This document shows positions 8,093 to 33,366 of a DNA stretch of 64,000 bases, one piece after another. Below the pieces are notes generated by a model, which was given only the letters and a program-made list of their open reading frames with translations, did no database searches and was not told the origin of the DNA. Position 1 is the first letter of the stretch. Each line of letters opens with the position of its first letter. This DNA comes from a virus (Duplodnaviria > Heunggongvirae > Uroviricota > Caudoviricetes), in the IMG/VR virus record IMGVR_UViG_3300009826_000001, positions 1 through 64,000 of that record. One strand, 5' to 3'. The translations under genes were made by a program, and so were the position numbers.

Positions 8093-8209
8093 GTGACGAA
8101 CGAAGTAGGGGCGATCCGCACTCGGTATTTCCCGACCCCGGGCCGGGCGTTCTTTCTTGAACTATCACCCTGCGGGCGAACAGGTAAGCGAATCATTTCG
8201 GCTCGTCAC
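8093..8209 (-). ncRNA. structured RNA-like repeat unit 4 (117 nt)
   Basis: terminal stem GTGACGA/TCGTCAC; GAACGAAGTAGGGG motif; no T-loop. Confidence 0.35.
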
Positions 8210-8219
8210 CGAAGTTGTG

Positions 8220-8384
8220 GGTGGGGAACGAAGGGGTTGGCAACCGGAGAGGGCTTACGCCCAGCGAGTTAGGCCACTACTCTACGGCCCGCTCACGCTT
8301 CTCAACGCTTCGCAGGCCGGCGGGATTCGAACCCGCGATCTCATCTTTGACAGAGATAACCAATTGCACGGTCGGCTCCCCACC
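8220..8384 (-). ncRNA. structured RNA-like repeat unit 5 (165 nt) with tRNA T-arm and D-loop mimics
   Basis: 8-bp terminal stem GGTGGGGA/TCCCCACC; minus-strand GCGGGTTCGAATCCCGC (perfect T-arm) and AATTGGTTA D-loop-like; no matching acceptor or anticodon arm. Confidence 0.45.
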
Positions 8385-8394
8385 ACAAGCTAGA

Positions 8395-8514
8395 GGACGC
8401 GAGCGAAGAAGGTGAAGACCGGGTTTCACGCCGGGGCGAAACCCGACGCGGCAGGGTTTGAACCTGCTATGCCAAGTTAACCGATCATCGAACGGCTCGC
8501 GTCCCTATTCAGCT
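8395..8514 (-). ncRNA. structured RNA-like repeat unit 6 (120 nt) with T-arm mimic
   Basis: 10-bp terminal stem GGACGCGAGC/GCTCGCGTCC; minus-strand GCAGGTTCAAACCCTGC T-arm-like and GATCGGTTA D-loop-like. Confidence 0.45.
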
Positions 8515-8630
8515 TTCAAGCAACAACTCAGGGTATGTACGGCGTACATGCTTGTCAAGGACATGTTTTCCCGGCGCGCCGCGAGTCATTACCCATTGCC
8601 GCCCGGATTCGGGCATACAGTGGCGATGTG

Positions 8631-18455: not shown

Positions 18456-19816
18456 GCGTTCTCGCCCGACTGATGCCGCGCGGCGGCGCGATGGAGCGCC
18501 GCACGCTGGAAAGCTCTGCGTTCGTCCCACCCCCTCAAGTCGGTGTGATCGACGATTACGTCGGCGTACACCGGGCGATGAGCTCAATGACGGTGATGGC
18601 CTGCGTGCGGCTGCTCTCCGATACCATCGCCAGCCTGCCGTGGAAGGCATACCGCAAGGGCAAGGACGGCATCCCCGTCGAGGTCGACCCGCAGCCGGCG
18701 ATCCTGCGCAGCCCGTTCCCCGGCTTCGACTTGTTTCAGTACAAGTGGATGATGGTGTCCTCGATGGCGTTGCGCGGCAACTTCTACGCCTACGTCACCA
18801 GCCGCGACGCCATGTTCCGGCCCACCGCGATCCTGCCTCTGCACCCCGACCTGATTTTTTTGGAGCGCCGACCCGACATCCTGATGTGGATGGACCCCAT
18901 CTACCGCATCATGGGCCAGCAGGTGCCCAGCCAGGACATGGTCCACATCCGGCGCTTCACGATGGCCGGCGAGCCGTGGGGCCTCTCCCCGGTCAAGCAG
19001 GCCGCGGCGGCGATCGGGATGAGCCTGGCCGCCGAGGAATACGGCTACCGCTATTTCCGCGAGTCGGCCAACCCTTCGGGCATGTTGATGACCGAGCAGA
19101 ACCTGTCCGACGACGTGGTCAAGCGCCAGCAACAGCAGTGGATCGCCAGCCACGGTGGCCGCCGGCTGCCGGCGGTGCTCACCGGCGGCTTCAGCTTCAA
19201 GACGCTCACGATTGCGCCCAACGAGGCGCAGTTCCTAGAAACCCGTCAGTTCCAGCGGTCTGAGATCGCCATGATGTACGGGATACCGCCGCACATGATC
19301 GGCGACACCGAACGGTCCACCAGCTGGGGCACCGGCATCGAGCAGCAGTCCATTGGCGCGGTCACATTCACCTTCCGGTCCTGGGCCGCGCCGATTGAAT
19401 CCGTGATGACCAACCTGCTGCCAACCGGCCAATATGTCCGGTTCGACTTCAACGAATTGACCCGAGGTGACATCAAAGCGCGCTACGACGCCTACGACCA
19501 GGCGATCCACTCCGGCTGGCTCAACGTCAACGAGGTTCGCCGCGACGAGCAACGGCCACCGATCGGACCTGATGGCGAAATCTACCTGCAGCCGGTCAAC
19601 TACGCGCCGCTGGGCTTCACCCCGGTGGCAGCACCACCCAAGGCGCCGCCGGCCGTGCCCCCGAACTACCCCGAAGCTCCCGGGGTGAAAGAGCCACCCG
19701 GAAAGGCTGGGCCGCCGCAGCCGGGGAAGCCAAACGGTAAAGGCACCCGAGATGACATCGGTGAGTATTTCGGGCGCCTATATCCGTGGCTTGACCCAGA
19801 GAATCAGCGAGGATAA
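18452..19816 (+). CDS. portal protein
   Basis: 454 aa, position between terminase and protease; HK97-like portal composition. Confidence 0.75.
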   Translation: MSVLARLMPRGGAMERRTLESSAFVPPPQVGVIDDYVGVHRAMSSMTVMACVRLLSDTIASLPWKAYRKGKDGIPVEVDPQPAILRSPFPGFDLFQYKWMMVSSMALRGNFYAYVTSRDAMFRPTAILPLHPDLIFLERRPDILMWMDPIYRIMGQQVPSQDMVHIRRFTMAGEPWGLSPVKQAAAAIGMSLAAEEYGYRYFRESANPSGMLMTEQNLSDDVVKRQQQQWIASHGGRRLPAVLTGGFSFKTLTIAPNEAQFLETRQFQRSEIAMMYGIPPHMIGDTERSTSWGTGIEQQSIGAVTFTFRSWAAPIESVMTNLLPTGQYVRFDFNELTRGDIKARYDAYDQAIHSGWLNVNEVRRDEQRPPIGPDGEIYLQPVNYAPLGFTPVAAPPKAPPAVPPNYPEAPGVKEPPGKAGPPQPGKPNGKGTRDDIGEYFGRLYPWLDPENQRG

Positions 19817-19820
19817 AGGG

Positions 19821-22001
19821 ATGGACCACAGTAATCGCGCCCGCCTGATCGACGTCCCGGAGCGCCGCACCCTCGCGATGCCACCGGAGTTGCGTAAAGA
19901 CCCGGGCACCGGGCAGCTGGTGATGAGCGGCTACGCCGCGACGTGGGACCCCTACGACTGCTACGGCGGACCCGACCACGGCGGGTGGGTGGAGAAGCTG
20001 GAACGGGCCGCGTTCGAGCGCACCCTTGACGAGAAGCCCGACATGATGCTGCTGGTCAACCACGAGGGACTGCCGCTGGCGCGCACCAAGAGCGGCACGC
20101 TGCAACTTGACACCGACCGGCGAGGTCTGACGATGCGCGCGATGCTCGATCCCGACGACCCCGACGTGCAGCGGCTGATCCCGAAGATGAAGCGCAAAGA
20201 CCTCAACGAGATGAGTTTTTCGTTCCGGGTCAAAGATCAGGCGTGGAACAGCGATTACAGCCACCGCACGATAACTGAACTATCACTTCAGAAAGGGGAC
20301 GTGTCGATTGTCAATTACGGCATGAACCCCAACACCCATGCGATCATGGGCGTGGAATCGCTGGCACGCGCGGACGGGAGCGCACTGATGGAGGTCCGGC
20401 GCCTGGACCGCACCGTGCTGGCCGGGGCGATGGCCAACCTGCGCCGCGCCTGGCGTGCCAACGAGGAACCCGAGCACTGCCCCGGTGGCGCGGATTGCAT
20501 GGGCGCGATGTGCCCCGACCACGGCGAGAAGGCCGGCAAGCGCCAGTCCACGCTGGTCAACTTCGATGGCGGTCACTTGCTGCACGGCGGGGAGTGCCTG
20601 ACGTGTGCGGGGGCCCGCGCCAAGACGCCGTCCCAGTACGGCAACGTCGACTACGCCGACCCCGGCTACCTGGACAGCTCGGGCAAGCAGGCCAAGGGCG
20701 GCAACGGCGTCAAGCGGTACCCGATAGATAAGACCCACGTCAAAGCGGCGTGGAGCTATATCAACATGCCCAAGAACCAGAAGGGCTACACGCCAAGCCA
20801 GCTGGCGTCGATCAAGAACAAGATCAAGGCTGCCATGAAGAAGTTCGGGCACGATACCGACGACAGCGACTCCAAGAGCCTGCAGACCGTGGTCGATATC
20901 GACCGGGTCGAGGGCGTGCGAACCGCAACCGGCGGCCTGGCGCTGGTGGCCGTGATGACCGATGGGTCGCGCACCCCGCTGCCGTCCTTGCAGGACACTT
21001 CCAGCCCGATTTCGGGCGTTCCCAGGATGCGCAAGACCGACAACTCGGTCACCGGGTCGGGCAAGGTCAGCGGAACGCGCGTGCCGGTCAAGGACGAGGG
21101 CGAGGACGACCCCGACGAGTTCGGCGAGCCGATCAAGGCCAGTATGCAGAACTGGAAGGACGACGAGGGCCCGAACGACCCGCACAACGAGCCCTACAAG
21201 GCACCGGGTCGCACCGGGCCGGGACAGGCCACCGACAATTCGGTGCTGGACGCCAAGCCCAAGACCAAGGACACCGACTTCTACGACATCTGGCCGGAGT
21301 ATTCGCCCAACGATCCGCACGACGACCCGTATGACGCGCCCAGCGACGAGGGTGACAAAGACCCCGACGAGCTGCACGGCGACCCGGCCCCCGAGCCGAG
21401 CCCCGCAGTCGGCACGGCGTTTCGGCAGGGCACCGGCCCGCGGCTGGGTGGTCACGACATTCCCACCACCGACCATCCGTACAGCGACGATATCGGCACC
21501 GAGCCCTCCGGTGATGCCTATGGCCCGCAGAAGGAGATGGACGACGAGGCCGTCGAGGACGAGCACCACGCCAAGACCACCAGCACCTCCAAGGAGTGGA
21601 TGGAGGGCAGCGCGGCCGAGGACCCGTGGGGCAAGCGCGAGCTGCCCGAGGACAATCCCGACTTCGACGACCCGGTGAAGATCCACGCCACTGCGCGCCG
21701 CGAAGGCAAGAAGCCGCCGACCGATCCCGATGACCCGGAGTACGAGAATGAGCGCCAAGACGGCGAGTCCGAGGCCGCCCCGGACTTCGGCGGCGGCGAG
21801 GATGGCGAGTCCGATTCCGACATGTCCGACGACATGGACGACGCCACGACAGGAGATGGCGGCGATGGCGGCGGCCTGGGCGAGATGTATTCCTACCAGC
21901 CCAGCGTGACCGAGCACCTGCAGCGACTACGACGCAATGCCGAGCTGCCCGACCTGCCGACGCTTGCTGAGGCGGCGGCGTACCTGCACCAGCTGGGCTA
22001 G
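19821..22001 (+). CDS. capsid maturation protease fused to long acidic scaffold-like C-terminal extension
   Basis: N-terminal about 200 aa HK97 prohead-protease-like; C-terminal about 480 aa D/E/P-rich; RBS AAAGGG before ATG 19821. Confidence 0.7.
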   Translation: MDHSNRARLIDVPERRTLAMPPELRKDPGTGQLVMSGYAATWDPYDCYGGPDHGGWVEKLERAAFERTLDEKPDMMLLVNHEGLPLARTKSGTLQLDTDRRGLTMRAMLDPDDPDVQRLIPKMKRKDLNEMSFSFRVKDQAWNSDYSHRTITELSLQKGDVSIVNYGMNPNTHAIMGVESLARADGSALMEVRRLDRTVLAGAMANLRRAWRANEEPEHCPGGADCMGAMCPDHGEKAGKRQSTLVNFDGGHLLHGGECLTCAGARAKTPSQYGNVDYADPGYLDSSGKQAKGGNGVKRYPIDKTHVKAAWSYINMPKNQKGYTPSQLASIKNKIKAAMKKFGHDTDDSDSKSLQTVVDIDRVEGVRTATGGLALVAVMTDGSRTPLPSLQDTSSPISGVPRMRKTDNSVTGSGKVSGTRVPVKDEGEDDPDEFGEPIKASMQNWKDDEGPNDPHNEPYKAPGRTGPGQATDNSVLDAKPKTKDTDFYDIWPEYSPNDPHDDPYDAPSDEGDKDPDELHGDPAPEPSPAVGTAFRQGTGPRLGGHDIPTTDHPYSDDIGTEPSGDAYGPQKEMDDEAVEDEHHAKTTSTSKEWMEGSAAEDPWGKRELPEDNPDFDDPVKIHATARREGKKPPTDPDDPEYENERQDGESEAAPDFGGGEDGESDSDMSDDMDDATTGDGGDGGGLGEMYSYQPSVTEHLQRLRRNAELPDLPTLAEAAAYLHQLG

Positions 22002-22003
22002 TT

Positions 22004-23356
22004 ATGATCGTCGGTGTCGGTACGGGCCGCTCAGGCACCTTGACGTTGGCACTATTGCTGGATGGTTGTCAGAACATCCGGTGCGTGCATGAGTCCGAGC
22101 CGCTGTTGCCGTGGGAGATCGACGGCCGCGCCTACAAGGACAAGCTCGCCGAGATCAAGGCCGAGCCGGGCCGCGCCGAGGTCGGCTTCTACTGGCTGAA
22201 CTACCTGCGGCCACTGCTCAAGGACGTTCCCGACGTGCGGATCGTGGCCACCCGGCGCGACCCGGTGAAGACCGCCGAGTCCTTCGCGGCCTACATGGGC
22301 CCCAAGCGCAACCACTGGCTGGATCACAAGGGTGTGGGCTGGGAGCTCGACCCGCTGTTCGACGACTGTTACCCCACCTACGAGATACGCGACCGCCACC
22401 AGGCGATCGTGCGCTACTGCACCGAGTACAACGCCGAGGTGGACCGGCTGCGGCGCAAGTACCCCTCCCAGGTGCTGGTGGTCAAGACCGAAGACCTGGG
22501 CACCATCGCCACCCAGCAGAAGATTTTCGAGCACTGCGGCATCCCCAAGTCCGATCGCTGCTATGTCGCCGGCATCCACCACAACAAGCGCAAGGAAACC
22601 CGCGACCAGCAAGACGAGCTGGACCTCACGGCGCTGTCGACCACCGGGGACTCTCAGCGCATCCCGCTCTACGTCGGCACCTACCGCAAGCGCAAGCACA
22701 TCGAGACCTGCCTGCGCAGCATCGACGCCAACGTCAAGGGCTACGACGAGATCATCTTCCTCGACGACTCCGGCGACCGGCTGCACACCAAGTGGCTCCT
22801 GCAGTACGGGCAGGTGGTGGCACTGCCCAAAGTCGGGCACAGCGTCGCGATGCGGGCACTGTGCGCGCACGCCAACGGGCGCCAGCTGGCCTGGATCGAG
22901 GAGGACTTCGAGATCACTGGCTCGATGGACCTCACTGAGATGAGCGAGCACCTCTACCACCGGCCCTACCTGGCGCAGATCGCGCTGCTGCGCCAGCCGT
23001 TGTGGGCCGACGAGAAGCGCCTCGGCGGCGTGCTGGAGGCGGTGGCCGCCAACGGCTGGGCGGTGCGCTATGTGCTGGGGCTGTGGGAATCGCGTGGGTG
23101 GTTCACCTGCAACCCCTCCCTGTGGCGCGGGCATGTCACCGAGCTGGGCTGGCCCAATCCCAAGCGGGTGGCCGGGCGCGACTACAGCAGCGAATGGATC
23201 AAGAGCAAAGAACTGCGCGAACTGTTCATGGGCGAGAAGCTGCCCTCGGACTGGATGGCGCCGATCAGCGAAAAGGAGCCGCGTGGCTACTCGTTCGGAT
23301 TCCTCGACGGCATCCGGTGTCACCACTGGGGACACCGGGAGGGCCACGGCTATTAA
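22004..23356 (+). CDS. sulfotransferase-like domain fused to GT2-like glycosyltransferase domain
   Basis: N-terminal IVGVGTGRSGTLTL (5'-PSB-like P-loop) and VATRRDPVKTAESFAAY (RDP 3'-PB-like) resemble carbohydrate sulfotransferases; C-terminal IPLYVGTYRKRKHIETCLRSI...EIIFLDDSGD GT-A/GT2-like. Confidence 0.55.
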   Translation: MIVGVGTGRSGTLTLALLLDGCQNIRCVHESEPLLPWEIDGRAYKDKLAEIKAEPGRAEVGFYWLNYLRPLLKDVPDVRIVATRRDPVKTAESFAAYMGPKRNHWLDHKGVGWELDPLFDDCYPTYEIRDRHQAIVRYCTEYNAEVDRLRRKYPSQVLVVKTEDLGTIATQQKIFEHCGIPKSDRCYVAGIHHNKRKETRDQQDELDLTALSTTGDSQRIPLYVGTYRKRKHIETCLRSIDANVKGYDEIIFLDDSGDRLHTKWLLQYGQVVALPKVGHSVAMRALCAHANGRQLAWIEEDFEITGSMDLTEMSEHLYHRPYLAQIALLRQPLWADEKRLGGVLEAVAANGWAVRYVLGLWESRGWFTCNPSLWRGHVTELGWPNPKRVAGRDYSSEWIKSKELRELFMGEKLPSDWMAPISEKEPRGYSFGFLDGIRCHHWGHREGHGY

Positions 23357-23512
23357 CCGGCGTCGGCTCAAGGACCGTCATCGCCAGCTTTGCGACGGGT
23401 CGATGGCGGTCCCCACGGAGTACGAGGACGACGAGTACGCGATCTGCCTGGCCTGCGGCCGGCGGCTGTGGGTCGGGCGCAACGGCAAGATTCCCAACCA
23501 TTGGCCGTCGAA

Positions 23513-24196
23513 GTGAAGCCCTCGGTGCAGGTGGTCATCCCTTGGCGGCCCAGTCCCGAGCGGATGGCCGCCTTCGAGCGGACCATGCAGTTCTGGAACT
23601 ACGTCGGCTGGCCGGTGGTGTTCGGCGACTCGCCGGCCGACAAGCCGTTCTCGCTGGCCCAGGCCCGTAACCGCGGGGTGGCCAAGACCTCGGCGCAGAT
23701 CGTGGTGGTGTCCGACGCCGACACCATCCCCACGCTGCAGAACGTGGTGCGCGCGGTCGATGATCCCGGTCCCGGTGTGACCTGGGTGTTTAGCCACTAC
23801 CGGCGTATCCACCAGGACTGGGTGGACAAGCCCGACCTGATGGGCGCCCCGCTGATCGAGAGCTGGGAGAACGGACTGGGCGGCTGCTATGTCTGCAAGC
23901 GGTCCACCTACTTCTACATCGGCGGCACCGATCCCCGGTTCATCGAGTGGGGCTTCGAGGACACCTCGATGTATGCGGTGGCCTCCACGCTGGCCCAGGC
24001 CCGCCGGATGCCGGGCGTGATCTTTAGCTTTGAGCACGACGGCGGTTGGACCAAGCGCGGCAACCAGGCCAACCGGCCGCTGTTCACGCCGTATTACAGC
24101 GCGCGGCGCAAGCCGTGGATGATGCGTGCGCTGCTGCGCCAGCGCGCACAGGCCGACCCCACCGACCCGGCCAACATCTACTGGGGACGCCGGTGA
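23513..24196 (+). CDS. GT-A glycosyltransferase (β4GalT/GT7-like)
   Basis: GTG start overlapping upstream stop (GTGA); VVVSDADTIP DxD region, EWGFEDTSMY resembles the WGxEDDD galactosyltransferase motif. Confidence 0.6.
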   Translation: MKPSVQVVIPWRPSPERMAAFERTMQFWNYVGWPVVFGDSPADKPFSLAQARNRGVAKTSAQIVVVSDADTIPTLQNVVRAVDDPGPGVTWVFSHYRRIHQDWVDKPDLMGAPLIESWENGLGGCYVCKRSTYFYIGGTDPRFIEWGFEDTSMYAVASTLAQARRMPGVIFSFEHDGGWTKRGNQANRPLFTPYYSARRKPWMMRALLRQRAQADPTDPANIYWGRR

Positions 24197-24363
24197 GCGA
24201 TGTCATTCCCAATGATGGCCGCTACATCGTTGTCCGCACCGGCCAGCCGGAGGTCTTACTGGTGGCCTGCGCGGAGTGCGGTGTGCTGCTGTGGGACATC
24301 GACGCGCACTACAAACACGCACATTTCGTTCCACCCCATCCACCGCGCGGCGTGTCGCACTAA
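24193..24363 (+). CDS. small protein (56 aa) with CxxC
   Basis: GTGA overlap; VSDVIPNDGRYIVVRTGQPEVLLVACAECGVLLWDIDAHYKHAHF. Confidence 0.4.
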   Translation: MSDVIPNDGRYIVVRTGQPEVLLVACAECGVLLWDIDAHYKHAHFVPPHPPRGVSH

Positions 24364-24466
24364 TCGCCGCGGGCGCCGTGGTAACACTGTTTCTCACGGA
24401 ATCGCGTAGATAAAGCCGGCACGGCTGAAGCCGCGACTCCCACCCTGGCACAGGGGCCCTGATTGA

Positions 24467-24492
24467 TCAGCGCCCTGTTCCGGGCGCTGAAT
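24467..24492 (+). terminator. stem-loop AGCGCCC-TGTTCC-GGGCGCT upstream of capsid gene
   Basis: perfect 7-bp inverted repeat, 6-nt loop, in 150-nt non-coding gap. Confidence 0.35.
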
Positions 24493-24511
24493 TCCGAGTT
24501 AAGGGAATGAA

Positions 24512-25999
24512 ATGCCCGAGTTGCTAGAGGAGCGAGATCCGCTCAATCCGGCCGGGGGCATGGAGGCGTACCTCAAACGTATGCTCCAGCGCCGGGCTCA
24601 ATTAGTCCGACAGCGCGAGGCGTTGCAGGAGAAGGCCGAGGCCGTCCTGCTCGAAGCGCGCAGTGCGGGCCGCGACCAGCTTGGTCCTGAGGAAGATTCC
24701 GAGCTGCGCAAGTACACCAAGCAGATGAAGGCCCTGGGCGCCGACATTGCCGGCCTCGACGAGCGTATCGAGGAAACCCGGCAAGAGGTCGAGCGCACCG
24801 GCTCCATCAGCAAGAACCTCGCCAAGATTCGGCAGGCCGAGACTGCGGTCACCCGGGTCCGTGAGATGGCGGTCTACCAGCAGGGTGACAAGCGCCGGTC
24901 CTATATGCAGGACTTGGTGAAGATGAGCCTCAACCTGGACGCCACCGGCGAGTGCCGGGAACGCCTGATGCGGCACGCACAGGACGTTGCCACCAGCGAT
25001 GACTACCGGGAGTTCCGCGACATCGACCGGGTTGACGGTACCGGCGGTTACGCCGTGCCGCCCGTCTGGCTGATGAATCAGTACATCGAGTTGGCACGTC
25101 CGGGCCGGGCGTTCGCCAACCTGGTGCAGCGCCAGCCACTACCCGGCGGTACGGACTCGATCAACATCCCCAAGCTGTTGACCGGGACCGCGGTCGGTAT
25201 GCAGACCGACAACCAGGACGTCACCGAGGTGGACCTGACGGACACCTTCGTGAACGCTCCGGTACGCACCATCGCCGGCCAGCAAGGGCTCGCCATCCAG
25301 TTGATCGACCAGTCGCCCATCGCGTTCGACGACGTGGTGTTCCGCGACCTGGTGGCCGCGCACGCCGCCGCTGTGGACCAACAGGTTCTACAGGGCGACG
25401 GCACAGGCGGGCTTGGCCCGGGCAACCAGGCCGGCGGCCAGGTGCTCGGCGTGGACTACACCCCGGGGATTCTCACAGTGGCAGCCGCCACGGTGGACAT
25501 CCAGGGCGTGTACTCCGCGATCGCCAACGCCATCCAGCAAGTGCACACCACGCGTTTCCTGCCGCCCGAGGTGATCGTCATGCACCCGCGGCGATGGGGC
25601 TGGTTCCTGAGCCTGCTGGACACCACGCAGCGCCCGCTGTTCCTGCCCAGCGCCAACAGCCCGATGAACATCGGCGGTCTGTTGACTGCGGTGGCAAGCC
25701 AGCAGGTGGTCGGCCAGATGCACGGCCTGCCGGTGGTCACCGACCCGAACATCTCCACTGGGACGCCGCCTACCGGCGCACCGTTGGGGACGCCGGGCGA
25801 TGGCGAGGACACCATCTACGTCGCACGCGTGAGCGACTTGGTTCTGTGGGAGGGTGGCATCCGCGCTCGCGTGCTGCCGGAAACCCGCGCACAGACCCTG
25901 ACAGTCCTCCTGCAAATCTATTCGTACATCGCGTTCAGCGCAGGGCGGTATCCACAGTCCGTCGCGGTCATAACAGGTTTGACCCCACCGACCTTCTGA
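24512..25999 (+). CDS. major capsid protein (HK97 fold) with N-terminal coiled-coil delta-like region
   Basis: AAGGGA RBS; 495 aa; position after protease/scaffold; followed by strong terminator. Confidence 0.8.
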   Translation: MPELLEERDPLNPAGGMEAYLKRMLQRRAQLVRQREALQEKAEAVLLEARSAGRDQLGPEEDSELRKYTKQMKALGADIAGLDERIEETRQEVERTGSISKNLAKIRQAETAVTRVREMAVYQQGDKRRSYMQDLVKMSLNLDATGECRERLMRHAQDVATSDDYREFRDIDRVDGTGGYAVPPVWLMNQYIELARPGRAFANLVQRQPLPGGTDSINIPKLLTGTAVGMQTDNQDVTEVDLTDTFVNAPVRTIAGQQGLAIQLIDQSPIAFDDVVFRDLVAAHAAAVDQQVLQGDGTGGLGPGNQAGGQVLGVDYTPGILTVAAATVDIQGVYSAIANAIQQVHTTRFLPPEVIVMHPRRWGWFLSLLDTTQRPLFLPSANSPMNIGGLLTAVASQQVVGQMHGLPVVTDPNISTGTPPTGAPLGTPGDGEDTIYVARVSDLVLWEGGIRARVLPETRAQTLTVLLQIYSYIAFSAGRYPQSVAVITGLTPPTF

Positions 26000-26006
26000 C
26001 CTGCGG
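25994..26006 (+). repeat. 13-bp direct repeat TTCTGACCTGCGG (left copy)
   Basis: identical copy at 26853..26865 flanking the EndoVII gene. Confidence 0.6.
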
Positions 26007-26033
26007 TTTTACAACTAAATAGCCTCAAACAGC

Positions 26034-26077
26034 AAACTCCCCGGTAGTCAATCAGACTCCGGGGAGTTTGCTTGTTA
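26034..26077 (+). terminator. rho-independent terminator after capsid gene
   Basis: CAAACTCCCCGG / CCGGGGAGTTTG 12-bp stem followed by CTTGTT. Confidence 0.6.
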
Positions 26078-26148
26078 GCAAACCTCCCAGCAAACCGATT
26101 GCGTTGTGGGACACAAAATTGTCGCAGCCCGCTGTTAAGTTGCGCGGC

Positions 26149-26841
26149 ATGGATGATTCCCTGTTCTCGTACAGCGACCTTGATCCAGACCAACGAATCC
26201 CAGTGTGGGGGCCAGAGGGTCTGTTGCCACTGGGATTAGATGATCCTGACGTCGCGGCCGAGGGCATCCACTTCTGTCATAAGTGCAACAGAGTGAAGTT
26301 GCACTCGGAGTTCTACATTCGGCCAGGAAGTGGCCGAGTTCAATTCCCCTGCTCGGACTGTATAAGGGAGTACCAGAAGCGATACGCCGGAAACGATGAG
26401 TTCAATGCTCACCGACGAAAGCAATATGCGAATGACCCCGAGAAGCAGGCGAAGAATCGCGAGCGCCACCAACGCCTAATGCTCGATCCCGCATACCGGG
26501 CAGCGCAAGTGGAGAGGGTCAAGAAATGGGTCGATTCCAATCCCCTTCGCCGCTGGGCGACTCAGCTCAGCAGGTACAGCATCACGCCTGATGATTACGA
26601 AAAAATCTTCGCGGCGCAGGGAAGCGTCTGTGCAGGATGCTTAGCTCCCCCGAACGGCAGGAAGCTGGCTGTGGATCATAACCACCGGTGCTGCGACGGC
26701 GACTTCTCATGCGGGGCGTGCATCCGCGGCCTGCTATGCGATACCTGCAATCGCCGGATCTTGGGTAATGCGGAGAAGAATCGCACCGTCGAAGAAGCAA
26801 CTGCGGTGCTGCGTAGGCTGGCTGACTATCTGGAGGCTTGA
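26149..26841 (+). CDS. Endonuclease VII-type HNH homing endonuclease
   Basis: CAGCLAPPNGRKLAVDHNHRCCDGDFSCGACIRGLLCDTCNRRILG canonical EndoVII/HNH motif; ATG 26149 in ORF 26068..26841. Confidence 0.8.
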   Translation: MDDSLFSYSDLDPDQRIPVWGPEGLLPLGLDDPDVAAEGIHFCHKCNRVKLHSEFYIRPGSGRVQFPCSDCIREYQKRYAGNDEFNAHRRKQYANDPEKQAKNRERHQRLMLDPAYRAAQVERVKKWVDSNPLRRWATQLSRYSITPDDYEKIFAAQGSVCAGCLAPPNGRKLAVDHNHRCCDGDFSCGACIRGLLCDTCNRRILGNAEKNRTVEEATAVLRRLADYLEA

Positions 26842-26852
26842 CGCCGCCTACG

Positions 26853-26865
26853 TTCTGACCTGCGG
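26853..26865 (+). repeat. 13-bp direct repeat TTCTGACCTGCGG (right copy)
   Basis: see 25994..26006. Confidence 0.6.
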
Positions 26866-26873
26866 AAACGCTG

Positions 26874-26911
26874 AAAACTGGCCGCCACGATCAAGTGGCG
26901 GCCAGTTTTTT
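26874..26911 (+). terminator. bidirectional rho-independent terminator
   Basis: AAAACTGGCCGCC-ACGATCAAGT-GGCGGCCAGTTTTTT. Confidence 0.65.
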
Positions 26912-26936
26912 GTGTGGCTACCGATACCCTTAACTC

Positions 26937-27323
26937 ATGGCCGCGCCCGTTCCCAACCGCTGGGCCAACGATCCCCACCCGCGCGGCGTCCCATTACTGC
27001 CAGCGCCCCCGCCAGTCTGGGACCCGTGTAGTCACGGTGGCGACCTGGCGGTACACGGCACCGGAGAGTGCGCTGACTCCGCCAACCCCGCCACCGCTGT
27101 CACGGCCGAGGTTCGCTGGATGGCCGATCCCGGCCTGGGCCCCGAACCGGCCCGTGCCGCGTCAGTGCTCTATATCGCCAGCCTGGCCGCGGCCGGCAGC
27201 GGGGCGACGTTCTTTGCCCGCGACGCGATGTTCGGCGACGTGGAGCCGGTACTGCAAACCGCGCCGACGCCCACGATGGGCAAGCTGCTGTTCTTCCCCA
27301 CGGATCACAAGCGCCTCGGCTGA
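26937..27323 (+). CDS. hypothetical head/connector-region protein (128 aa)
   Basis: ORF track; preferred over overlapping 475-aa Arg/Pro-rich ORF 26914..28341. Confidence 0.4.
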   Translation: MAAPVPNRWANDPHPRGVPLLPAPPPVWDPCSHGGDLAVHGTGECADSANPATAVTAEVRWMADPGLGPEPARAASVLYIASLAAAGSGATFFARDAMFGDVEPVLQTAPTPTMGKLLFFPTDHKRLG

Positions 27324-27347
27324 ACATCGACACGGACAGACCAGCCG

Positions 27348-27827
27348 GTGGCATTGCCTCCCACCGGCTGGTCCCGCGTTTACGCTTATGTCATGGCAGA
27401 GCTTTACGACATGGCCACCGAGGATGTCCGCGATCCCGATAGCGCCCGCGCCCAGGCGATCAAGACAGCGGTACGCAACTACAAAGCGGCCCACAAGAAG
27501 CCACCCGAGCACTTGCAGCGGCTGGCCGACGAGCTCAACGGCCGGCCCGAGAAGAAGCCTGAGCCGGAGCCCGAGCCCCTCCCGGAGCCAGAGCCCGAGT
27601 CCGAACCCAAGCCGCAAGATTTCAGCGTCAGTGTCGATGGCGTGGATCAAGGCCCTGGGCAGGTGGACACGCGCCCCGACGACAGTCATCCCGGTGAACA
27701 GATCACGCCCGAATCCGGGCACAGGCCCAGGTCCAAGCCCAAGCCCGACGAACCGATCTTCCATGAGTTGCCCGGCCCTCTCTCGTCCCGCCGACCCCGC
27801 CGTAAACCCAAGGAGGAAACCAAGTGA
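27348..27827 (+). CDS. hypothetical protein with PEPEPEP linker
   Basis: ORF track. Confidence 0.45.
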   Translation: MALPPTGWSRVYAYVMAELYDMATEDVRDPDSARAQAIKTAVRNYKAAHKKPPEHLQRLADELNGRPEKKPEPEPEPLPEPEPESEPKPQDFSVSVDGVDQGPGQVDTRPDDSHPGEQITPESGHRPRSKPKPDEPIFHELPGPLSSRRPRRKPKEETK

Positions 27828-28084
27828 CGACTGCCATCAGCACTCCCGAGGGGCCCGTCGACACCGTCAACTACAGCACCCCCGCTCCCGAGGACGGGAC
27901 GATCTACCAGCGCGACCCGGCCACCGGCGACGTCTACATCGTGGCCGTCTTCGACCGCAACCCCTACAGCACCGGCCGTGGCGAGGGCGGCTGGTGCAAC
28001 CAGACCATCCCGCCGCAGGTGCCACCGCGCACCCCGATTTCGGCGGGCTACACGATGGTCGACGGAAGCTGGACGAGTGGCTGA
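27824..28084 (+). CDS. hypothetical protein (86 aa)
   Basis: ORF track. Confidence 0.45.
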   Translation: MTTAISTPEGPVDTVNYSTPAPEDGTIYQRDPATGDVYIVAVFDRNPYSTGRGEGGWCNQTIPPQVPPRTPISAGYTMVDGSWTSG

Positions 28085-28751
28085 GGACGACGAGGAATGG
28101 ATCGCGGCCCGTAAGGAAGCGGCTCTGCGTGTCCACAAGGACCCGATCCTCGACCTCATCGACACGCGCGACCCGGACTGGAATCTCTACGTCCAGCGCG
28201 ACATCCACTACCTACTGCGCGCGGCCGGCAAGACGATCCGGCAATACTGCGGGTGGCACATCTACCCCAATATCACCGAAACGCTCTACGACCAGGAGCT
28301 GGGCTCGGGCGGTCGGATCATCCTGCCCACGCTGTTTTTGACCGACGTGCTGTCGGTGAAGCTGCGCTTCGGCTCACCCGACCGACTGTTCGAGCTGAGT
28401 CCTCACGAGTACAGCTGGTGGCAGAACGGCTACATCATGCCTAATCGCCAGCCCTGGTCCGGGCGCGACTGGACCGGCTACTACTACGAGCCCGGGCCCA
28501 CGTTCCTGCCGGTGACCCGGCCCGGCTTCGCCCACGTCACCATCTGTCACGGCTATGACCGGGTGCCTGACGACATCCGGCAGGTGACCTTCGAGCTGGC
28601 CCGCTGGACGCAGGAGATGCCTATCGGCGGCAACGTGAGGATGATCAGCTCGCCGGGCTTCCGGCTGGCGCTCAACCAGGGCATGGGGATGAACCTGAAC
28701 CCCGACCAGAAGCTACGCCTGGGCAACTACTGCATCGGGAACTTCAAGTGA
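28077..28751 (+). CDS. putative head-to-tail connector protein (224 aa)
   Basis: GTG 28077 overlapping upstream stop; position between capsid and tail genes. Confidence 0.45.
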   Translation: MAEDDEEWIAARKEAALRVHKDPILDLIDTRDPDWNLYVQRDIHYLLRAAGKTIRQYCGWHIYPNITETLYDQELGSGGRIILPTLFLTDVLSVKLRFGSPDRLFELSPHEYSWWQNGYIMPNRQPWSGRDWTGYYYEPGPTFLPVTRPGFAHVTICHGYDRVPDDIRQVTFELARWTQEMPIGGNVRMISSPGFRLALNQGMGMNLNPDQKLRLGNYCIGNFK

Positions 28752-29050
28752 GCCGCATGGACGTCTCCGGCTGGCACAGCAAGGTGATCCGCGAGATAGA
28801 GCGCCAGCACGCGGCACGCCAGCATCCTCCTCTGCACTCGGGTTGGCGGGTCGCGCGTCTTGAGGTCAATGCTGATGATTGGCAAGAGGTGGGAGCCGAG
28901 CTGAAACGCAGCGCCACCGGCGACCCGCTGTACCTGCCGCCTGATGCTGAGCTCAACGCGGCGGCGGAAGCCGGGGCGGTGGGAACGATGCACGGCATTC
29001 CCGTCTGGCTGTCGCCCACCCTCCCCCGTGGCCGGGTGGACGCTAGATGA
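28748..29050 (+). CDS. hypothetical protein (100 aa)
   Basis: ORF track. Confidence 0.45.
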   Translation: MSRMDVSGWHSKVIREIERQHAARQHPPLHSGWRVARLEVNADDWQEVGAELKRSATGDPLYLPPDAELNAAAEAGAVGTMHGIPVWLSPTLPRGRVDAR

Positions 29051-31711: not shown

Positions 31712-32188
31712 ATGCAGCCTGAGTGGGCTGCCCGATTCTGGGCGAGGGTCGACAAGAACGGGCCCATCTCAGAGCTAGGCACTCCCTGTTGGATCTGGAC
31801 AGGACCACAGGCCGGAAAGGGATACGGATATCCCTGCTTCAATGGCAAGCATGAGTACGCCCACCGGCTTGCCTGGGAACTGGCCTACGGCCCGATCGGC
31901 AATGGGCTCACTATCGACCATCGCTGTCACGTTCCGCTCTGTGTCAACGCCGAGCATCTACGCTGCGTGACGCAGAAGCAGAACATCGAAAACCAGCGAA
32001 ACGGGATAAGACAGAGTGCCAACGGAGTTCGTGGAGTCACCCGAGGGAGATGGGGCGTCGGCTTCACCGCCCAGCTCAAGCATGAGGGAAAGTGCATCTA
32101 CCTCGGTACATACGCCACGCTCGAGGAAGCCGAGCAGGCGGCGGTCAACGGCCGCGCAAGGCTATTCACCCATTCAGACGGACGTTAG
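31712..32188 (+). CDS. HNH endonuclease with C-terminal AP2 domain
   Basis: CWIWTG...GYGYP...AHRLAWELAYGPIGNGLTIDHRCHVPLCVNAEHL (HNH_3) and GVRGVTRGRWGVGFTAQLKHEGKCIYLGTYATLEEAEQA (AP2). Confidence 0.75.
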   Translation: MQPEWAARFWARVDKNGPISELGTPCWIWTGPQAGKGYGYPCFNGKHEYAHRLAWELAYGPIGNGLTIDHRCHVPLCVNAEHLRCVTQKQNIENQRNGIRQSANGVRGVTRGRWGVGFTAQLKHEGKCIYLGTYATLEEAEQAAVNGRARLFTHSDGR

Positions 32189-32688: not shown

Positions 32689-33366
32689 TCAGCCCGGTCC
32701 GATCCCGGGGCGCGGCGCTTGACCGCCCGGTTTCGGGCGCCGGTGAAACCCCGAATGCTGTGCGTAGAGGTGCTCGGGATTCACGCAACCCTCATTGCGG
32801 CAGCTGCGCAGGATGACCGTGCGCGCCGGGATGGGCCCGTAGTGCAGCTCCCAGCAGTAGCGGTGCGCCAGCATGGTCTTGCCATTGACGCCGATGGTGG
32901 GCCGGCCGCGCCAGCCCCAGCAGTTGTTCTCCGGGCTCATCTGCACGCGGTCCCAGAACCGTTCCTCGGGCGTGCGCGTGATGAAGACCTCGCCGGGATC
33001 GCCGGTCTTGAGCCACGTCATGTAGTGGCTCACGCACCAGCCCCGGCAGTGCGCCGAGCGGGTGCAGCCGTCGACGATGCACTTGGCCCACTGGGGACGC
33101 TTGAGCTCGACATTGGCGAACTTCGCGCCGATCGAGCGCCAGTAGGACCGACGTGCCGCGGTGCTGCCGGCCTTCCAGACACGCAGGTCGGGCTCCATTG
33201 TGACCTCCACCAGCCCGCGGTCCGAGAGTGCCTTGACGGCCCGGTACGCCTGTGCGCGGGTGATGGCCAGCGCGGTGGCGATGCGACCGGTGGTCAGGTA
33301 TCGGCGGGTATCGCGCTCAAGAAGCGCCAGGATGCGGCGCTGCACGGACCCGATGGAGCGGCTCAC
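32689..33366 (-). CDS. HNH endonuclease with N-terminal HTH (opposite strand to late operon)
   Basis: CWGWRGRPTIGVNGKTMLAHRYCWELHYGPIPARTVILRSCRNEGCVNPEHL HNH_3 motif; N-terminal winged-helix-like; GTG start directly after T7 tract. Confidence 0.75.
   Translation of the reverse strand: MSRSIGSVQRRILALLERDTRRYLTTGRIATALAITRAQAYRAVKALSDRGLVEVTMEPDLRVWKAGSTAARRSYWRSIGAKFANVELKRPQWAKCIVDGCTRSAHCRGWCVSHYMTWLKTGDPGEVFITRTPEERFWDRVQMSPENNCWGWRGRPTIGVNGKTMLAHRYCWELHYGPIPARTVILRSCRNEGCVNPEHLYAQHSGFHRRPKPGGQAPRPGIGPG

What the first reader, a model, noticed from the sequence alone, without database searches (positions are those of the whole stretch)
25994..26911. EndoVII homing-endonuclease gene as a discrete insertion flanked by 13-bp direct repeats and terminators
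The EndoVII/HNH gene (26149..26841) lies between capsid and connector genes. The exact sequence TTCTGACCTGCGG occurs just before it (25994..26006) and just after it (26853..26865). A strong terminator hairpin follows each copy (26034..26077; 26874..26911). This fits a free-standing homing endonuclease that inserted, duplicating or carrying its target-site flank. The element boundaries can be read directly from the sequence.
Basis: seen in the sequence. Interest (0 to 1): 0.6.

Follow-up and report, generated by a model that had tools for sequence, protein, structure and literature searches.

The report
Nuclease gene beside duplicated capsid-gene end
A selfish nuclease gene sits just after this phage's capsid gene and is followed by a 32-base leftover copy of a second capsid-gene end, a scar showing the cassette came from a related phage; this is a tidy but ordinary case of a known kind of mobile gene.

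Summary
TTCTGACCTGCGG occurs exactly at 25994 and 26853. A PF02945 (Endonuclease VII) gene lies between the copies, and a strong hairpin (about -32 kcal/mol) follows each.

The 13-mer alone is not significant, because about 40 such pairs lie within 1 kb somewhere in the window. The repeat is really 32 nt long (25975-26006 and 26834-26865, 27/32 identical). All five mismatches are synonymous third positions, and both copies encode G-L-T-P-P-T-F-stop, the capsid C-terminus. So this is not a target-site duplication. It is two diverged capsid-gene ends, each with its own terminator-like hairpin, with the nuclease gene between them.

Among 97 relatives' loci, 18 carry an EndoVII gene as the first gene after the capsid. 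Two natural with/without pairs show the cassette replacing 53-62 bp at the capsid stop codon, next to highly divergent flanking tracts of the kind homing produces.

Best reading: a free-standing homing-endonuclease cassette was copied in from a lower-GC relative. Its left side joined by homology within the capsid gene. Its right side joined illegitimately, which preserved the recipient's last eight codons. The layout matches fungal mitochondrial "mobile ORF" gene hybrids. No near-identical genome without the cassette exists in the databases searched. This is a new member of a known kind, of modest interest.

The parts
24512..25999 (+). Major capsid protein gene (HK97 type), ending ...V-I-T-G-L-T-P-P-T-F-stop.
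   Evidence: Pfam PF05065. 49-55% aa identity to annotated capsid genes of Mycobacterium phages Bipper, Typha and prophiT37-1. Up to 78% aa identity to metagenomic relatives.
25889..25999 (+). Last 37 capsid codons, with lowered third-position GC. This may be a co-converted tract brought in with the cassette (inferred; weak evidence).
   Evidence: GC3 is 0.676 here, 0.854 for codons 24512-25888 and 0.654 for the nuclease gene. The natural pairs L048/L050 and L027/L026 show divergent tracts of 100-350 nt at the same place.
25975..26006 (+). Repeat copy 1: the functional end of the capsid gene (GGT TTG ACC CCA CCG ACC TTC TGA) plus CCTGCGG.
26031..26072 (+). Hairpin 1: 14-bp perfect stem, 14-nt loop, weak T tail (TTGTTAGC). 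It is a post-capsid terminator-like hairpin of a type shared with relatives.
   Evidence: -32.9 kcal/mol. Arms found. The stem is identical in L030 and L009 and nearly so in L082, all of which carry an EndoVII gene. Looser versions occur in L022 and L004, which lack it.
26149..26841 (+). Free-standing EndoVII-family (HNH-type) nuclease gene, 230 aa. It has an N-terminal CxxC...CxxC region and a C-terminal nuclease domain with CxxC...DHNH...CxxCN. There is no obvious ribosome-binding site.
   Evidence: PF02945 at 65.1 bits. PHROG endonuclease VII families. Alignment to T4 endonuclease VII (1e7d) keeps the Cys pairs, D-H-x-H and N. The ATG start is supported by homologues that begin MADDGLFSY.... 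It is the only EndoVII gene in the window.
26834..26865 (+). Repeat copy 2: a remnant of a second capsid-gene end (GGC TTG ACG CCG CCT ACG TTC TGA CCTGCGG). It reads G-L-T-P-P-T-F-stop in its own frame, with a stop codon four codons upstream. It overlaps the nuclease gene's last codons and supplies that gene's TGA (26839-26841).
   Evidence: Its 3' flank CCTGCGGAAAC matches the sequence just after the capsid stop in L030 and L082.
26874..26911 (+). Hairpin 2: 15-bp perfect stem, 6-nt loop and a T-rich tail. It is taken to be the resident genome's own capsid terminator.
   Evidence: -32.3 kcal/mol. Arms found. It resembles the hairpin after the capsid gene of L026, which has no nuclease gene (AACTGGCCGCC...GGCGGTCAGTT GTGTG).
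26937..27323 (+). First resident ORF downstream (128 aa, high GC3, no detectable homologues). Gene callers disagree on it (128 aa or 67 aa).
   Evidence: GC3 0.814. No hits in the relatives' loci, Pfam, PHROGs or the large protein database. Gene calls.
28077..28751 (+). Head-tail adaptor gene, the first downstream gene shared with relatives.
   Evidence: phrog_442 at 6.6e-17. tblastn hits in most relatives' loci, and 35% identity to the region annotated as adaptor in prophiT37-1.

Best explanation
The 859 extra base pairs are a free-standing EndoVII-family homing-endonuclease cassette. It sits at a recurrent hot spot immediately after the major capsid gene in this group of Mycobacterium-type siphophages.

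The cassette came from a related, lower-GC phage as one block: the end of that phage's capsid gene, its post-capsid hairpin and the nuclease gene. On the left it was joined by homology inside the capsid gene, so the working capsid end (copy 1) and hairpin 1 are donor-type. On the right there was no homology, so the joint was illegitimate and fell at about 26833/26834, at the last codons of the nuclease gene. That joint left the recipient's own last eight capsid codons, stop codon, CCTGCGG and terminator (copy 2 plus hairpin 2) intact downstream.

**Shown**
- The gene family.
- The 32-nt duplication with only synonymous differences.
- The two different hairpins.
- The GC drop.
- The sporadic occupancy of this site in relatives, with divergent flanking tracts.

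**Inferred**
- That the nuclease is active and site-specific.
- That a nuclease-made break in the conserved capsid 3' end triggered the event.
- Which of the two copies is donor and which is recipient.
For: 1. PF02945 domain with its metal and zinc ligands in place, plus a Cys-rich N-terminal extension that T4 endonuclease VII lacks.
2. GC falls to 51-60% across 25900-26900, against 62-73% on both sides. GC3 of the nuclease gene is 0.654 and of the last 37 capsid codons 0.676, against 0.854 for the rest of the capsid gene.
3. The repeat is 32 nt and 27/32 identical. All five differences are third codon positions, and both copies encode GLTPPTF-stop. No match that good appeared in 200 shuffles.
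4. Each copy is followed by a different capsid-type 3' region. Copy 1 is followed by hairpin GCAAACTCCCCGG, as in L030, L009 and L082. Copy 2 is followed by CCTGCGGAAAC as in L030 and L082, then a hairpin like that of L026.
5. 18 of 97 relatives' loci have a PF02945 ORF as the first gene 42-121 nt after the capsid stop, always on the same strand and never elsewhere in the next 4.5 kb. Ten of these were confirmed by Pfam.
6. Natural pairs show the same pattern.
   - **L048 against L050:** they have 0 mismatches over about 1,300 nt, then 6, 18, 13 and 21 mismatches per 100 nt up to the capsid stop. There a 696-bp cassette replaces 53 bp.
   - **L027 against L026:** they have 18 mismatches in the last 100 nt of the capsid gene. 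To the right of the cassette the counts are 19, 29, 35, 8 and 12 per 100 nt, then about 1-2.
   - **Synonymous recoding:** in both pairs the last 5-9 capsid codons are almost fully recoded synonymously (binomial P 4e-4 and 1.5e-6).
7. L048 and L055 share the recoded capsid end and hairpin but carry different EndoVII genes, which indicates turnover at the site.
8. The window's nuclease ends ...ADYLEA-stop, the shortest tail among the homologues. Its stop codon lies inside the capsid remnant, as expected for a joint at the very end of the gene.
9. Literature:
   - Free-standing HNH genes with T4-gp49-like domains are proposed as homing endonucleases in Cluster J mycobacteriophages, and one insertion there remodels the 3' end of the neighbouring gene (PMC3706429).
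   - Phage homing-endonuclease genes cluster beside capsid genes, among other essential genes (PMC10448857).
   - The same order of parts (inserted C-terminus, endonuclease ORF, native C-terminus) is described for mitochondrial mobile ORFs (PMC3630166).
Against: - No near-identical genome lacking the cassette exists in the collections searched. The next closest capsid is 78% identical in amino acids. The empty site, the donor and the extent of any co-converted tract therefore cannot be shown for this genome.
- The closest other nuclease is only about 42% identical, so no donor lineage is sampled.
- The GC3 dip is modest, and the first 60 capsid codons are similarly low (0.73-0.77).
- Pairs of relatives that both lack the gene also tend to be more divergent in the last 27 nt of the capsid gene. 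Recoding of the capsid end is therefore not specific to cassette carriers.
- L074 has a 60-nt capsid-end remnant behind an insert that has no nuclease gene. Such scars can arise, or persist, without one.
- The gene has no visible ribosome-binding site or promoter, and no activity data exist.
- The left arm could be wholly donor-derived (a crossover) rather than a short conversion tract.
Confidence: 0.6

Rival explanations
1. Module-exchange scar unrelated to nuclease activity. Two related phages recombined illegitimately near the capsid gene's end, a general mosaic joint in this family. The EndoVII gene merely lies next to the joint. It may even be a useful phage gene, such as a junction resolvase like T4 gp49, rather than a selfish element.
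For: - L074 carries a 60-nt capsid-end remnant 500 nt after its capsid stop, and the insert has no nuclease gene.
- The interval between capsid and adaptor varies from 337 to 3,967 nt among relatives, with many unrelated inserts.
- Pairs of relatives without the gene also diverge more at the capsid end.
- The domain family is named for a resolvase.
- It is the only EndoVII gene in the window.
Against: - The gene is present in only 18 of 97 relatives, so it is dispensable.
- It always occupies the same slot, with divergent tracts abutting it in otherwise near-identical genomes.
- It has a 139-aa Cys-rich N-terminal extension that the 157-aa T4 enzyme lacks.
- Its GC is lower than that of both flanks.
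- The joint falls exactly at the gene's 3' end.
Confidence: 0.22
2. True target-site duplication. The element inserted by a staggered cut that duplicated about 31 bp of target, and the two copies then diverged in place.
For: - The direct repeats bracket the gene at a spacing of 859 bp.
- If all changes in the functional copy must be synonymous, five out of five third-position differences has a probability of about 0.1 under in-place divergence (own calculation).
Against: - Each copy is followed by a different hairpin and flank, and each of these is matched by post-capsid regions of different relatives. The duplicated unit is therefore 'capsid end plus terminator' in two versions, not a short target.
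- There is no transposase. The only inverted repeats spanning the element are a 74%-complementary 19-mer pair.
- The natural with/without pairs in relatives show replacement with no duplication.
- HNH or EndoVII homing is not known to produce target-site duplications (established knowledge).
Confidence: 0.05
3. Decayed intron or intein. The nuclease gene was once inside a group I intron, or an intein, near the 3' end of the capsid gene, as in mycobacteriophage LittleE. Copy 2 would then be the old downstream exon.
For: LittleE's capsid gene carries a putative group I intron with an HNH gene. Copy 2 is in the right position to be a short 3' exon.
Against: - No Rfam family, including group I or II introns, matches 24000-29000 even at E up to 1.
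- The capsid ORF is complete and ends with its own stop codon before the hairpin.
- The nuclease is a separate ORF on the same strand, not fused in frame.
- The remnant's frame has a stop codon four codons upstream.
Confidence: 0.03
4. Chance repeat or assembly artefact.
For: Exact 13-mers repeated within 1 kb are common in this GC-rich window.
Against: The repeat is 32 nt at 84% identity, with codon-periodic mismatches, and no equal was found in 200 shuffles. The sequence is identical in five loci drawn from three independently assembled contigs.
Confidence: 0.01

Closest known systems
Free-standing HNH / EndoVII-type homing endonuclease genes of mycobacteriophages (Cluster J: Omega, Courthouse and others; PMC3706429)
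   Same: - It is a separate ORF with a T4-gp49-like nuclease domain.
- Its distribution is patchy among related phages.
- It is inserted next to a conserved gene.
- One described insertion (Omega gene 51) also remodelled the 3' end of the neighbouring gene. The authors attribute this to faulty repair or to a donor in a distant context.
- The phages are related: Cluster J and Y capsids are 41-50% identical to this one.
   Different: - The site is the capsid 3' end rather than the lysis cassette.
- Here the neighbour's end is duplicated rather than deleted.
- The protein is only about 30% identical to annotated mycobacteriophage EndoVII genes.
- None of these has been shown biochemically to home, as far as I know.
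Mitochondrial mobile ORF ('mORF') gene hybrids: Allomyces macrogynus atp6; Glomus atp6, atp9, cox2 and nad3 (PMC3630166)
   Same: - The order of parts is identical: inserted foreign C-terminal coding end, endonuclease ORF, then the displaced native C-terminal remnant.
- The two C-termini differ in DNA but are conserved in protein (one search compared).
   Different: - Those endonucleases are LAGLIDADG or GIY-YIG and are often fused in frame to the host gene. Here the gene is an EndoVII-type ORF separated from the capsid gene by a stop codon and a hairpin.
- The duplication here is only 8 codons, against tens of codons in the fungal cases.
- The host is a phage, not an organelle.
- No cassette-free sister is available to prove which end is native.
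T-even phage intronless homing (SegF, SegG, MobE) and 'nuclease genes at boundaries of genetic exchange' (PMC10448857)
   Same: - It is a free-standing nuclease gene between essential genes.
- Divergent co-converted tracts flank the gene, as seen in relatives L048/L050 and L027/L026.
- The literature reports enrichment of homing-endonuclease genes beside capsid genes (31% of T5orf172 neighbourhoods).
   Different: - The nuclease families differ (GIY-YIG, T5orf172 or HNH in those cases).
- Those events use homology on both sides and leave no duplication.
- The mechanistic details for Seg and Mob enzymes are from my own knowledge of the literature and were not re-read here.
T4 endonuclease VII (gp49; PDB 1e7d / 1en7)
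   Same: The nuclease domain is shared: CxxC, D-H-x-H and CxxC-N line up, and Pfam places it in PF02945.
   Different: - T4 gp49 has 157 aa and no N-terminal extension. It is a structure-specific junction resolvase needed for packaging (established knowledge).
- The window protein has 139 extra N-terminal residues with two Cys pairs.
- It is dispensable among relatives.
- Direct pairwise similarity is weak (E 0.5).

Membership tests
Endonuclease VII family (Pfam PF02945; HNH-type fold) | Profile match above the curated cut-off | tested here: met
   65.1 bits against a cut-off of 23.6, covering profile positions 5-81 of 82. PHROG endonuclease VII families score down to 9e-22.
Endonuclease VII family (Pfam PF02945; HNH-type fold) | Zinc-binding Cys pairs and the D-H-x-H ... 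N metal and catalytic residues | tested here: met
   The alignment to T4 endonuclease VII (1e7d) keeps vCagC / kCliC, vDHnH / lDHdH and RGLLCdtCN / RGLLCnlCN. The roles of these residues are taken from established knowledge of T4 endo VII.
Endonuclease VII family (Pfam PF02945; HNH-type fold) | Nuclease activity | not testable with these tools
   Needs purified protein.
Free-standing homing endonuclease gene | Own ORF between genes, not inside an intron or intein | tested here: met
   It is a separate ORF after the capsid stop codon and a hairpin. No intron family matches 24000-29000.
Free-standing homing endonuclease gene | Presence or absence at the same site among otherwise closely related genomes | tested here: inconclusive
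   Met for the family: 18 of 97 loci carry it, and L048 against L050 and L027 against L026 are 94-97% identical in the flanks. For this particular genome, all 10 contigs that encode the identical capsid protein appear to carry the gene, and the next relative is only 78% identical in the capsid protein.
Free-standing homing endonuclease gene | Divergent (co-converted) flanks abutting the gene | tested here: inconclusive
   Clear in the relatives' pairs. In the window there is only a GC3 dip in the last 37 capsid codons (0.676 against 0.854).
Free-standing homing endonuclease gene | Site-specific cleavage of the allele lacking the gene, and resistance of the allele carrying it | not testable with these tools
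   Needs a cleavage assay on a reconstructed empty site.
Transposable element with target-site duplication | Short identical direct repeats made from one target, plus terminal inverted repeats or a transposase | tested here: not met
   The copies differ at 5 of 32 positions and have different flanks and hairpins. There are no convincing terminal inverted repeats (best is 74% over 19 nt). The only ORF is the nuclease.
Mobile-ORF gene hybrid (fungal mitochondrial type) | Order of parts: inserted C-terminal end, endonuclease ORF, native C-terminal remnant, with the DNA diverged and the protein conserved | tested here: met
   The layout is 25975-26006 / 26149-26841 / 26834-26865, with 27/32 nt and 8/8 codons conserved. 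The definition is taken from PMC3630166.
Mobile-ORF gene hybrid (fungal mitochondrial type) | Native remnant matches the cassette-free sister genome | not testable with these tools
   No sister genome is available in any collection searched.
Intron-encoded HNH endonuclease (as in the LittleE capsid gene) | A group I intron structure around the nuclease ORF that interrupts the capsid reading frame | tested here: not met
   No Rfam match at E up to 1. The capsid ORF is uninterrupted.
Terminase-associated HNH packaging factor (HK97 gp74 type) | A small PF01844-type HNH protein encoded next to the terminase genes and conserved in all relatives | tested here: not met
   Only PF02945 is matched. The gene lies after the capsid gene, separated from the portal gene by the protease and two transferase-like genes. 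It is absent from 79 of 97 relatives.

The most novel reading that the evidence does not exclude
The left edge of the remnant (about 26834) may record where the nuclease cut the recipient. If so, this whole set of EndoVII genes targets the highly conserved coding sequence for the capsid C-terminus, G-L-T-(A/P)-P-T-F-stop. Carriers would escape cutting through synonymous recoding of those codons. The window would then preserve a 'one-sided' homing event, with homology on the left and end-joining on the right. It would also be a phage counterpart of the mitochondrial mobile-ORF gene hybrids, with the target readable directly from sequence.
Probability: 0.3. Interest if true: 0.45.

Novelty: new member of a known kind. 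Interest (0 to 1): 0.3.

Why it matters
If the reading is right, this locus gives an unusually legible record of how a selfish nuclease gene enters a phage genome when only one side has homology. The recipient's displaced capsid end survives next to the donor's, so donor, recipient and joint can all be pointed to.

The reading also nominates a concrete, testable target: the last eight capsid codons. That target would apply to a family of EndoVII-type nucleases that, to my knowledge, has never been characterised biochemically as homing enzymes.

It adds one worked example to the view that nuclease genes mark the seams of phage mosaicism. It does not change that view. The gene family, the hot spot next to a capsid gene and the duplicated-C-terminus layout all have precedents.

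Tried and rejected
1. **Near-identical genomes.** A megablast of 24500-28400 against 50,697 phage records found only a 53-nt capsid match. No close cultured relative exists.
2. **Cassette-free sibling by protein identity.**
   - The exact capsid protein is on 10 contigs. The places shown all carry the nuclease gene, and the counts of nuclease-bearing contigs cover the rest.
   - The next capsid is 78% identical.
3. **Cassette-free sibling by exact DNA pattern across remnant plus hairpin 2.** There were 0 hits in metagenome contigs. The 2 hits in viral contigs are unrelated phages with no capsid homology.
4. **Donor lineage through the nuclease protein.**
   - The word-indexed search found only the protein itself.
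   - The exhaustive search found 22,000 domain relatives, but the best full-length one is 42% identical.
5. **Relatives of the downstream ORF (26937-27323), to identify the resident lineage.** No homologues were found at all.
6. **Mapping a conversion tract by comparing capsid 3' segments with relatives.** Indels and 60-78% divergence make this uninformative beyond the last 150 nt.
7. **Simple terminator and promoter scan.** It called neither hairpin and no promoter. Folding was used instead.
8. **Rfam.** Nothing matched in 24000-29000, which removes the intron idea.
9. **Recoded capsid end as specific to carriers.** This was rejected as a clean rule, because pairs that both lack the gene also show lower identity in the last 27 nt.
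10. **Truncation of the nuclease by the joint.** This was weakened. The Pfam domain is complete to position 81 of 82, and some homologues have tails only 3 aa longer.


Full report
**1. What is in the sequence**

The 13-mer TTCTGACCTGCGG is exact at 25994-26006 and 26853-26865.

The first copy spans the last sense codon and stop codon of a 495-aa HK97-type major capsid gene (24512-25999, PF05065). This gene is 49-55% identical to the annotated capsid genes of Mycobacterium phages Bipper, Typha and prophiT37-1.

Between the copies lies a 230-aa ORF (26149-26841). It matches Pfam Endonuclease_7 well above the cut-off (65.1 against 23.6 bits) and several PHROG 'endonuclease VII' families. Aligned to T4 endonuclease VII, it keeps the two Cys pairs, D-H-x-H and the Asn.

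Each copy is followed by a perfect hairpin:
- arms 26031-26044 / 26059-26072, -32.9 kcal/mol;
- arms 26874-26888 / 26895-26909, -32.3 kcal/mol, followed by a T-rich tail.

The consensus terminator scan missed both for technical reasons: a 14-nt loop in the first, and a T-run paired to an A-run in the second.

The sequence is 100% identical over 2,889 bp in five loci drawn from three independently assembled contigs, so it is not an assembly artefact.

**2. Is the repeat more than chance?**

The exact 13-mer alone is not. The window contains 138 identical 13-mer pairs within 1 kb of each other, roughly 40 independent ones.

It covers 25975-26006 and 26834-26865, which is 32 nt with 27 identical positions. 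In the capsid reading frame the two copies are:
- GGT TTG ACC CCA CCG ACC TTC TGA
- GGC TTG ACG CCG CCT ACG TTC TGA

All five differences are third positions, and both copies read G-L-T-P-P-T-F-stop. Both then continue with CCTGCGG. A match of at least 26/31 to the capsid end was never seen in 200 shuffles of the window.

The downstream copy is therefore a remnant of a capsid-gene end. Its frame is closed four codons upstream. It overlaps the nuclease gene's last codons, so that gene's TGA (26839-26841) lies inside the remnant.

**3. What the two copies are**

Each copy is followed by a different capsid-type 3' region.

- **After copy 1:** an AT-rich spacer, then a hairpin with stem GCAAACTCCCCGG. 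The identical stem follows the capsid gene in relatives L030 and L009. Near-identical versions follow it in L082, L022 and L004.
- **After copy 2:** the flank reads CCTGCGGAAAC, as directly after the capsid stop in L030 and L082. The hairpin that follows resembles the one after the capsid gene of L026, which has no nuclease gene.

'TGA CCTGC(G/A/T)G' straight after the capsid stop recurs even in a Streptomyces prophage whose capsid is 53% identical (L092).

So the duplicated unit is 'capsid end plus its terminator' in two diverged versions. This is not what a target-site duplication looks like.

Synonymous-only divergence is most simply explained if both copies once served as real capsid ends in different genomes. 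In-place divergence after a duplication is disfavoured only mildly by the codon pattern (P about 0.1 by my calculation). It is disfavoured strongly by the different flanks.

**4. Composition**

GC falls from 62-70% in the capsid gene to 51-60% across 25900-26900, then rises to 62-73%.

| Segment | GC3 |
|---|---|
| Capsid codons up to 25888 | 0.854 |
| Last 37 capsid codons | 0.676 |
| Nuclease gene | 0.654 |
| Next ORF (26937-27323) | 0.814 |

The figures fit a lower-GC block that begins inside the capsid gene's 3' end and stops at the remnant. The dip is modest, and the first 60 capsid codons are also lowish, so I treat this as weak support.

**5. Relatives**

No nucleotide-level relative exists among cultured phages. 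Capsid homologues were collected from three sources:
- IMG/VR (80 loci, up to 77% aa identity);
- GTDB genomes (16 loci, mostly Mycobacterium prophages and metagenome-assembled genomes);
- the large protein collection (best 78%, no nuclease gene downstream).

In a survey of 97 such loci, 18 carry an EndoVII-type ORF. In every case it is the first gene after the capsid gene, starts 42-121 nt after the stop and is on the same strand. None lies elsewhere in the following 4.5 kb. Ten representatives were confirmed as PF02945.

These nucleases are only 29-47% identical to the window's. Their similarity does not track capsid similarity.

The distance from the capsid gene to the head-tail adaptor gene ranges from 337 to 3,967 nt. 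This interval is a general hot spot for inserts.

**6. Natural pairs with and without the gene**

- **L048 against L050 (without):** They are identical over about 1,300 nt of the capsid gene. They then differ by 6, 18, 13 and 21 positions per 100 nt up to the stop codon. There a 696-bp block (hairpin plus nuclease gene) replaces 53 bp.
- **L027 (with) against L026 (without):**
  - There are 18 differences in the last 100 nt of the capsid gene.
  - A 749-bp block replaces 62 bp.
  - To the right of the block there are 19, 29, 35, 8 and 12 differences per 100 nt, falling to about 1-2.

In both pairs nearly every third position of the last 5-9 capsid codons differs (binomial P 4e-4 and 1.5e-6 against the rest of the gene).

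L048 and L055 share that recoded end and the hairpin, yet carry different nuclease genes. This suggests turnover at one site.

Highly divergent tracts hugging a nuclease gene in otherwise near-identical genomes are the pattern expected from homing with co-conversion of flanks (established knowledge; see also PMC10448857).

Two cautions apply:
- Pairs of relatives that both lack the gene are also somewhat more divergent in the last 27 nt.
- None of these pairs shows a duplicated capsid end.

**7. Mechanism proposed**

A related, lower-GC phage carried this layout: capsid end (copy 1 type), hairpin 1, nuclease gene.

In a mixed infection, its cassette was copied into the ancestor of the present genome. 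On the left, the two capsid genes provided homology. On the right, the two phages had nothing in common: the ORFs after hairpin 2 have no homologues in any relative. The right joint was therefore illegitimate.

That joint fell within a codon or two of the natural end of the nuclease domain. The protein ends ...ADYLEA-stop, the shortest tail among the homologues, yet its Pfam domain is complete. The joint also fell eight codons before the recipient's capsid stop. This left the recipient's GLTPPTF-stop, CCTGCGG and terminator as a scar.

What is shown and what is inferred:
- **Shown:** the structure itself.
- **Inferred:**
  - the direction of transfer, based on GC, GC3 and flank similarity;
  - the trigger, a nuclease-made break in the conserved capsid 3' end.

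A full crossover, with the whole left arm donor-derived, would give the same local picture.

**8. Comparison with known systems**

- **Mycobacteriophages.** Free-standing HNH genes with T4-gp49-like domains are already proposed as homing endonucleases in the related Cluster J mycobacteriophages. The Omega gene 51 insertion there is reported to have created a new 3' end for the adjacent lysin gene, attributed to faulty repair or a distant donor context (PMC3706429).
- **Phages in general.** Homing-endonuclease genes are reported to cluster next to terminase, ribonucleotide reductase and capsid genes (PMC10448857).
- **Mitochondria.** The exact layout of inserted C-terminal end, endonuclease ORF and native C-terminal remnant, with DNA divergence but protein conservation, is the defining picture of mitochondrial 'mobile ORF' gene hybrids in Allomyces and Glomus (PMC3630166).

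The window's case differs in four respects: the nuclease family, a stop codon and hairpin between host gene and nuclease ORF, the shortness of the duplication (8 codons), and the host being a phage.

I therefore file it as a new member of a known kind.

**9. Rivals**

- **Module-exchange scar with the nuclease as bystander, or as a useful resolvase.** This remains possible at about 0.2. L074 shows a 60-nt capsid-end remnant behind an insert without a nuclease gene.
- **True target-site duplication (about 0.05).** The different flanks argue against it, as do the absence of transposase or terminal inverted repeats and the clean replacements seen in the natural pairs.
- **Decayed intron (about 0.03).** There are no Rfam hits, and the capsid ORF is complete.
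- **Chance or artefact.** This is excluded.

**10. Limits**

No cassette-free sibling and no donor could be found in any collection. For this genome the empty site, the donor and the conversion tract therefore remain inferences.

The nuclease has no visible ribosome-binding site or promoter, and its activity is untested.

**11. Verdict**

- **Observation:** confirmed, and extended from 13 to 32 nt.
partly supported. A mobile nuclease cassette is likely. A target-site duplication with element-borne terminators is not.
- **Interest:** 0.3. This is a clear, instructive example that offers a testable target site, but it stays within known biology.

Noticed in passing
window 31712-32188 (+) and 32689-33366 (-): Two further HNH genes (Pfam HNH_3; phrog_3593 at 6.6e-49 and 9.5e-23) sit inside the tail-gene block. 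The second has a faint MarR-like N-terminal hit. The phage therefore carries at least three nuclease genes in its structural region.
   Followed up: partly
L027 3690-3725; L030 4180-4215; L004 7530-7565; L080 about 7530-7565; L022 about 7540-7575: A conserved extended hairpin lies between the post-capsid hairpin and the start of the next gene in several relatives: GACCCCCG-CA-CCTG-CGGAAA-CAGG-C-CGGGGG. In L027 and L030 the next gene is the nuclease gene. L022 has the same shape with a different sequence, which may be covariation. The element is absent from the window. It was not tested against Rfam or modelled.
   Followed up: no
window 26000-26006 and 26859-26865; L030 4060; L092 7399; L082 7390; L022 7459: The heptamer CCTGCGG (or CCTGCTG, CCTGCAG) directly follows the capsid stop codon in several family members, including a Streptomyces prophage whose capsid is only 53% identical. 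CCTGCGG occurs at 0.54 per kb in the 300 nt after the stop, against 0.20 per kb in the background. Its function is unknown.
   Followed up: partly
L108 about 8180-8520 (IMGVR_UViG_2858908967_000002): An unrelated viral contig carries TCTGACCTGCGGAAACGC twice, within a non-coding stretch full of CGTGACTTTCTG iterons that looks like a replication origin. This is the same 18-mer as the window's remnant plus flank. It may be coincidence or a shared protein-binding motif.
   Followed up: no
L074 4728-4787: A relative without a nuclease gene carries a 60-nt remnant of a capsid-gene 3' end, with a 1-nt frameshift, 500 nt after its own capsid stop. The remnant lies behind an insert encoding only a 79-aa ORF with no family match. 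This is a second, independent capsid-end scar in the family.
   Followed up: yes
L048 2499-3194 against L055 2417-3206: Two relatives share the same recoded capsid end and post-capsid hairpin (0 mismatches in the last 27 nt) but carry different EndoVII genes with almost no DNA similarity. This suggests replacement of one nuclease gene by another at a fixed site.
   Followed up: partly
window 19752-24196: The prohead protease ORF (Peptidase_S78 plus DUF6582) has a very long acidic, proline-rich C-terminal extension. A sulfotransferase-like gene (22004-23356) and a glycosyltransferase-like gene (about 23390-24196) lie between the protease and capsid genes. This echoes the glycosyltransferase genes that flank the capsid gene in Cluster J phages.
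   Followed up: no
window 26937-27323: The first ORF after hairpin 2 has no homologue anywhere, not even itself in the large protein database. Different pipelines call it as 128 aa or as 67 aa. Whether it is a real gene is uncertain.
   Followed up: partly
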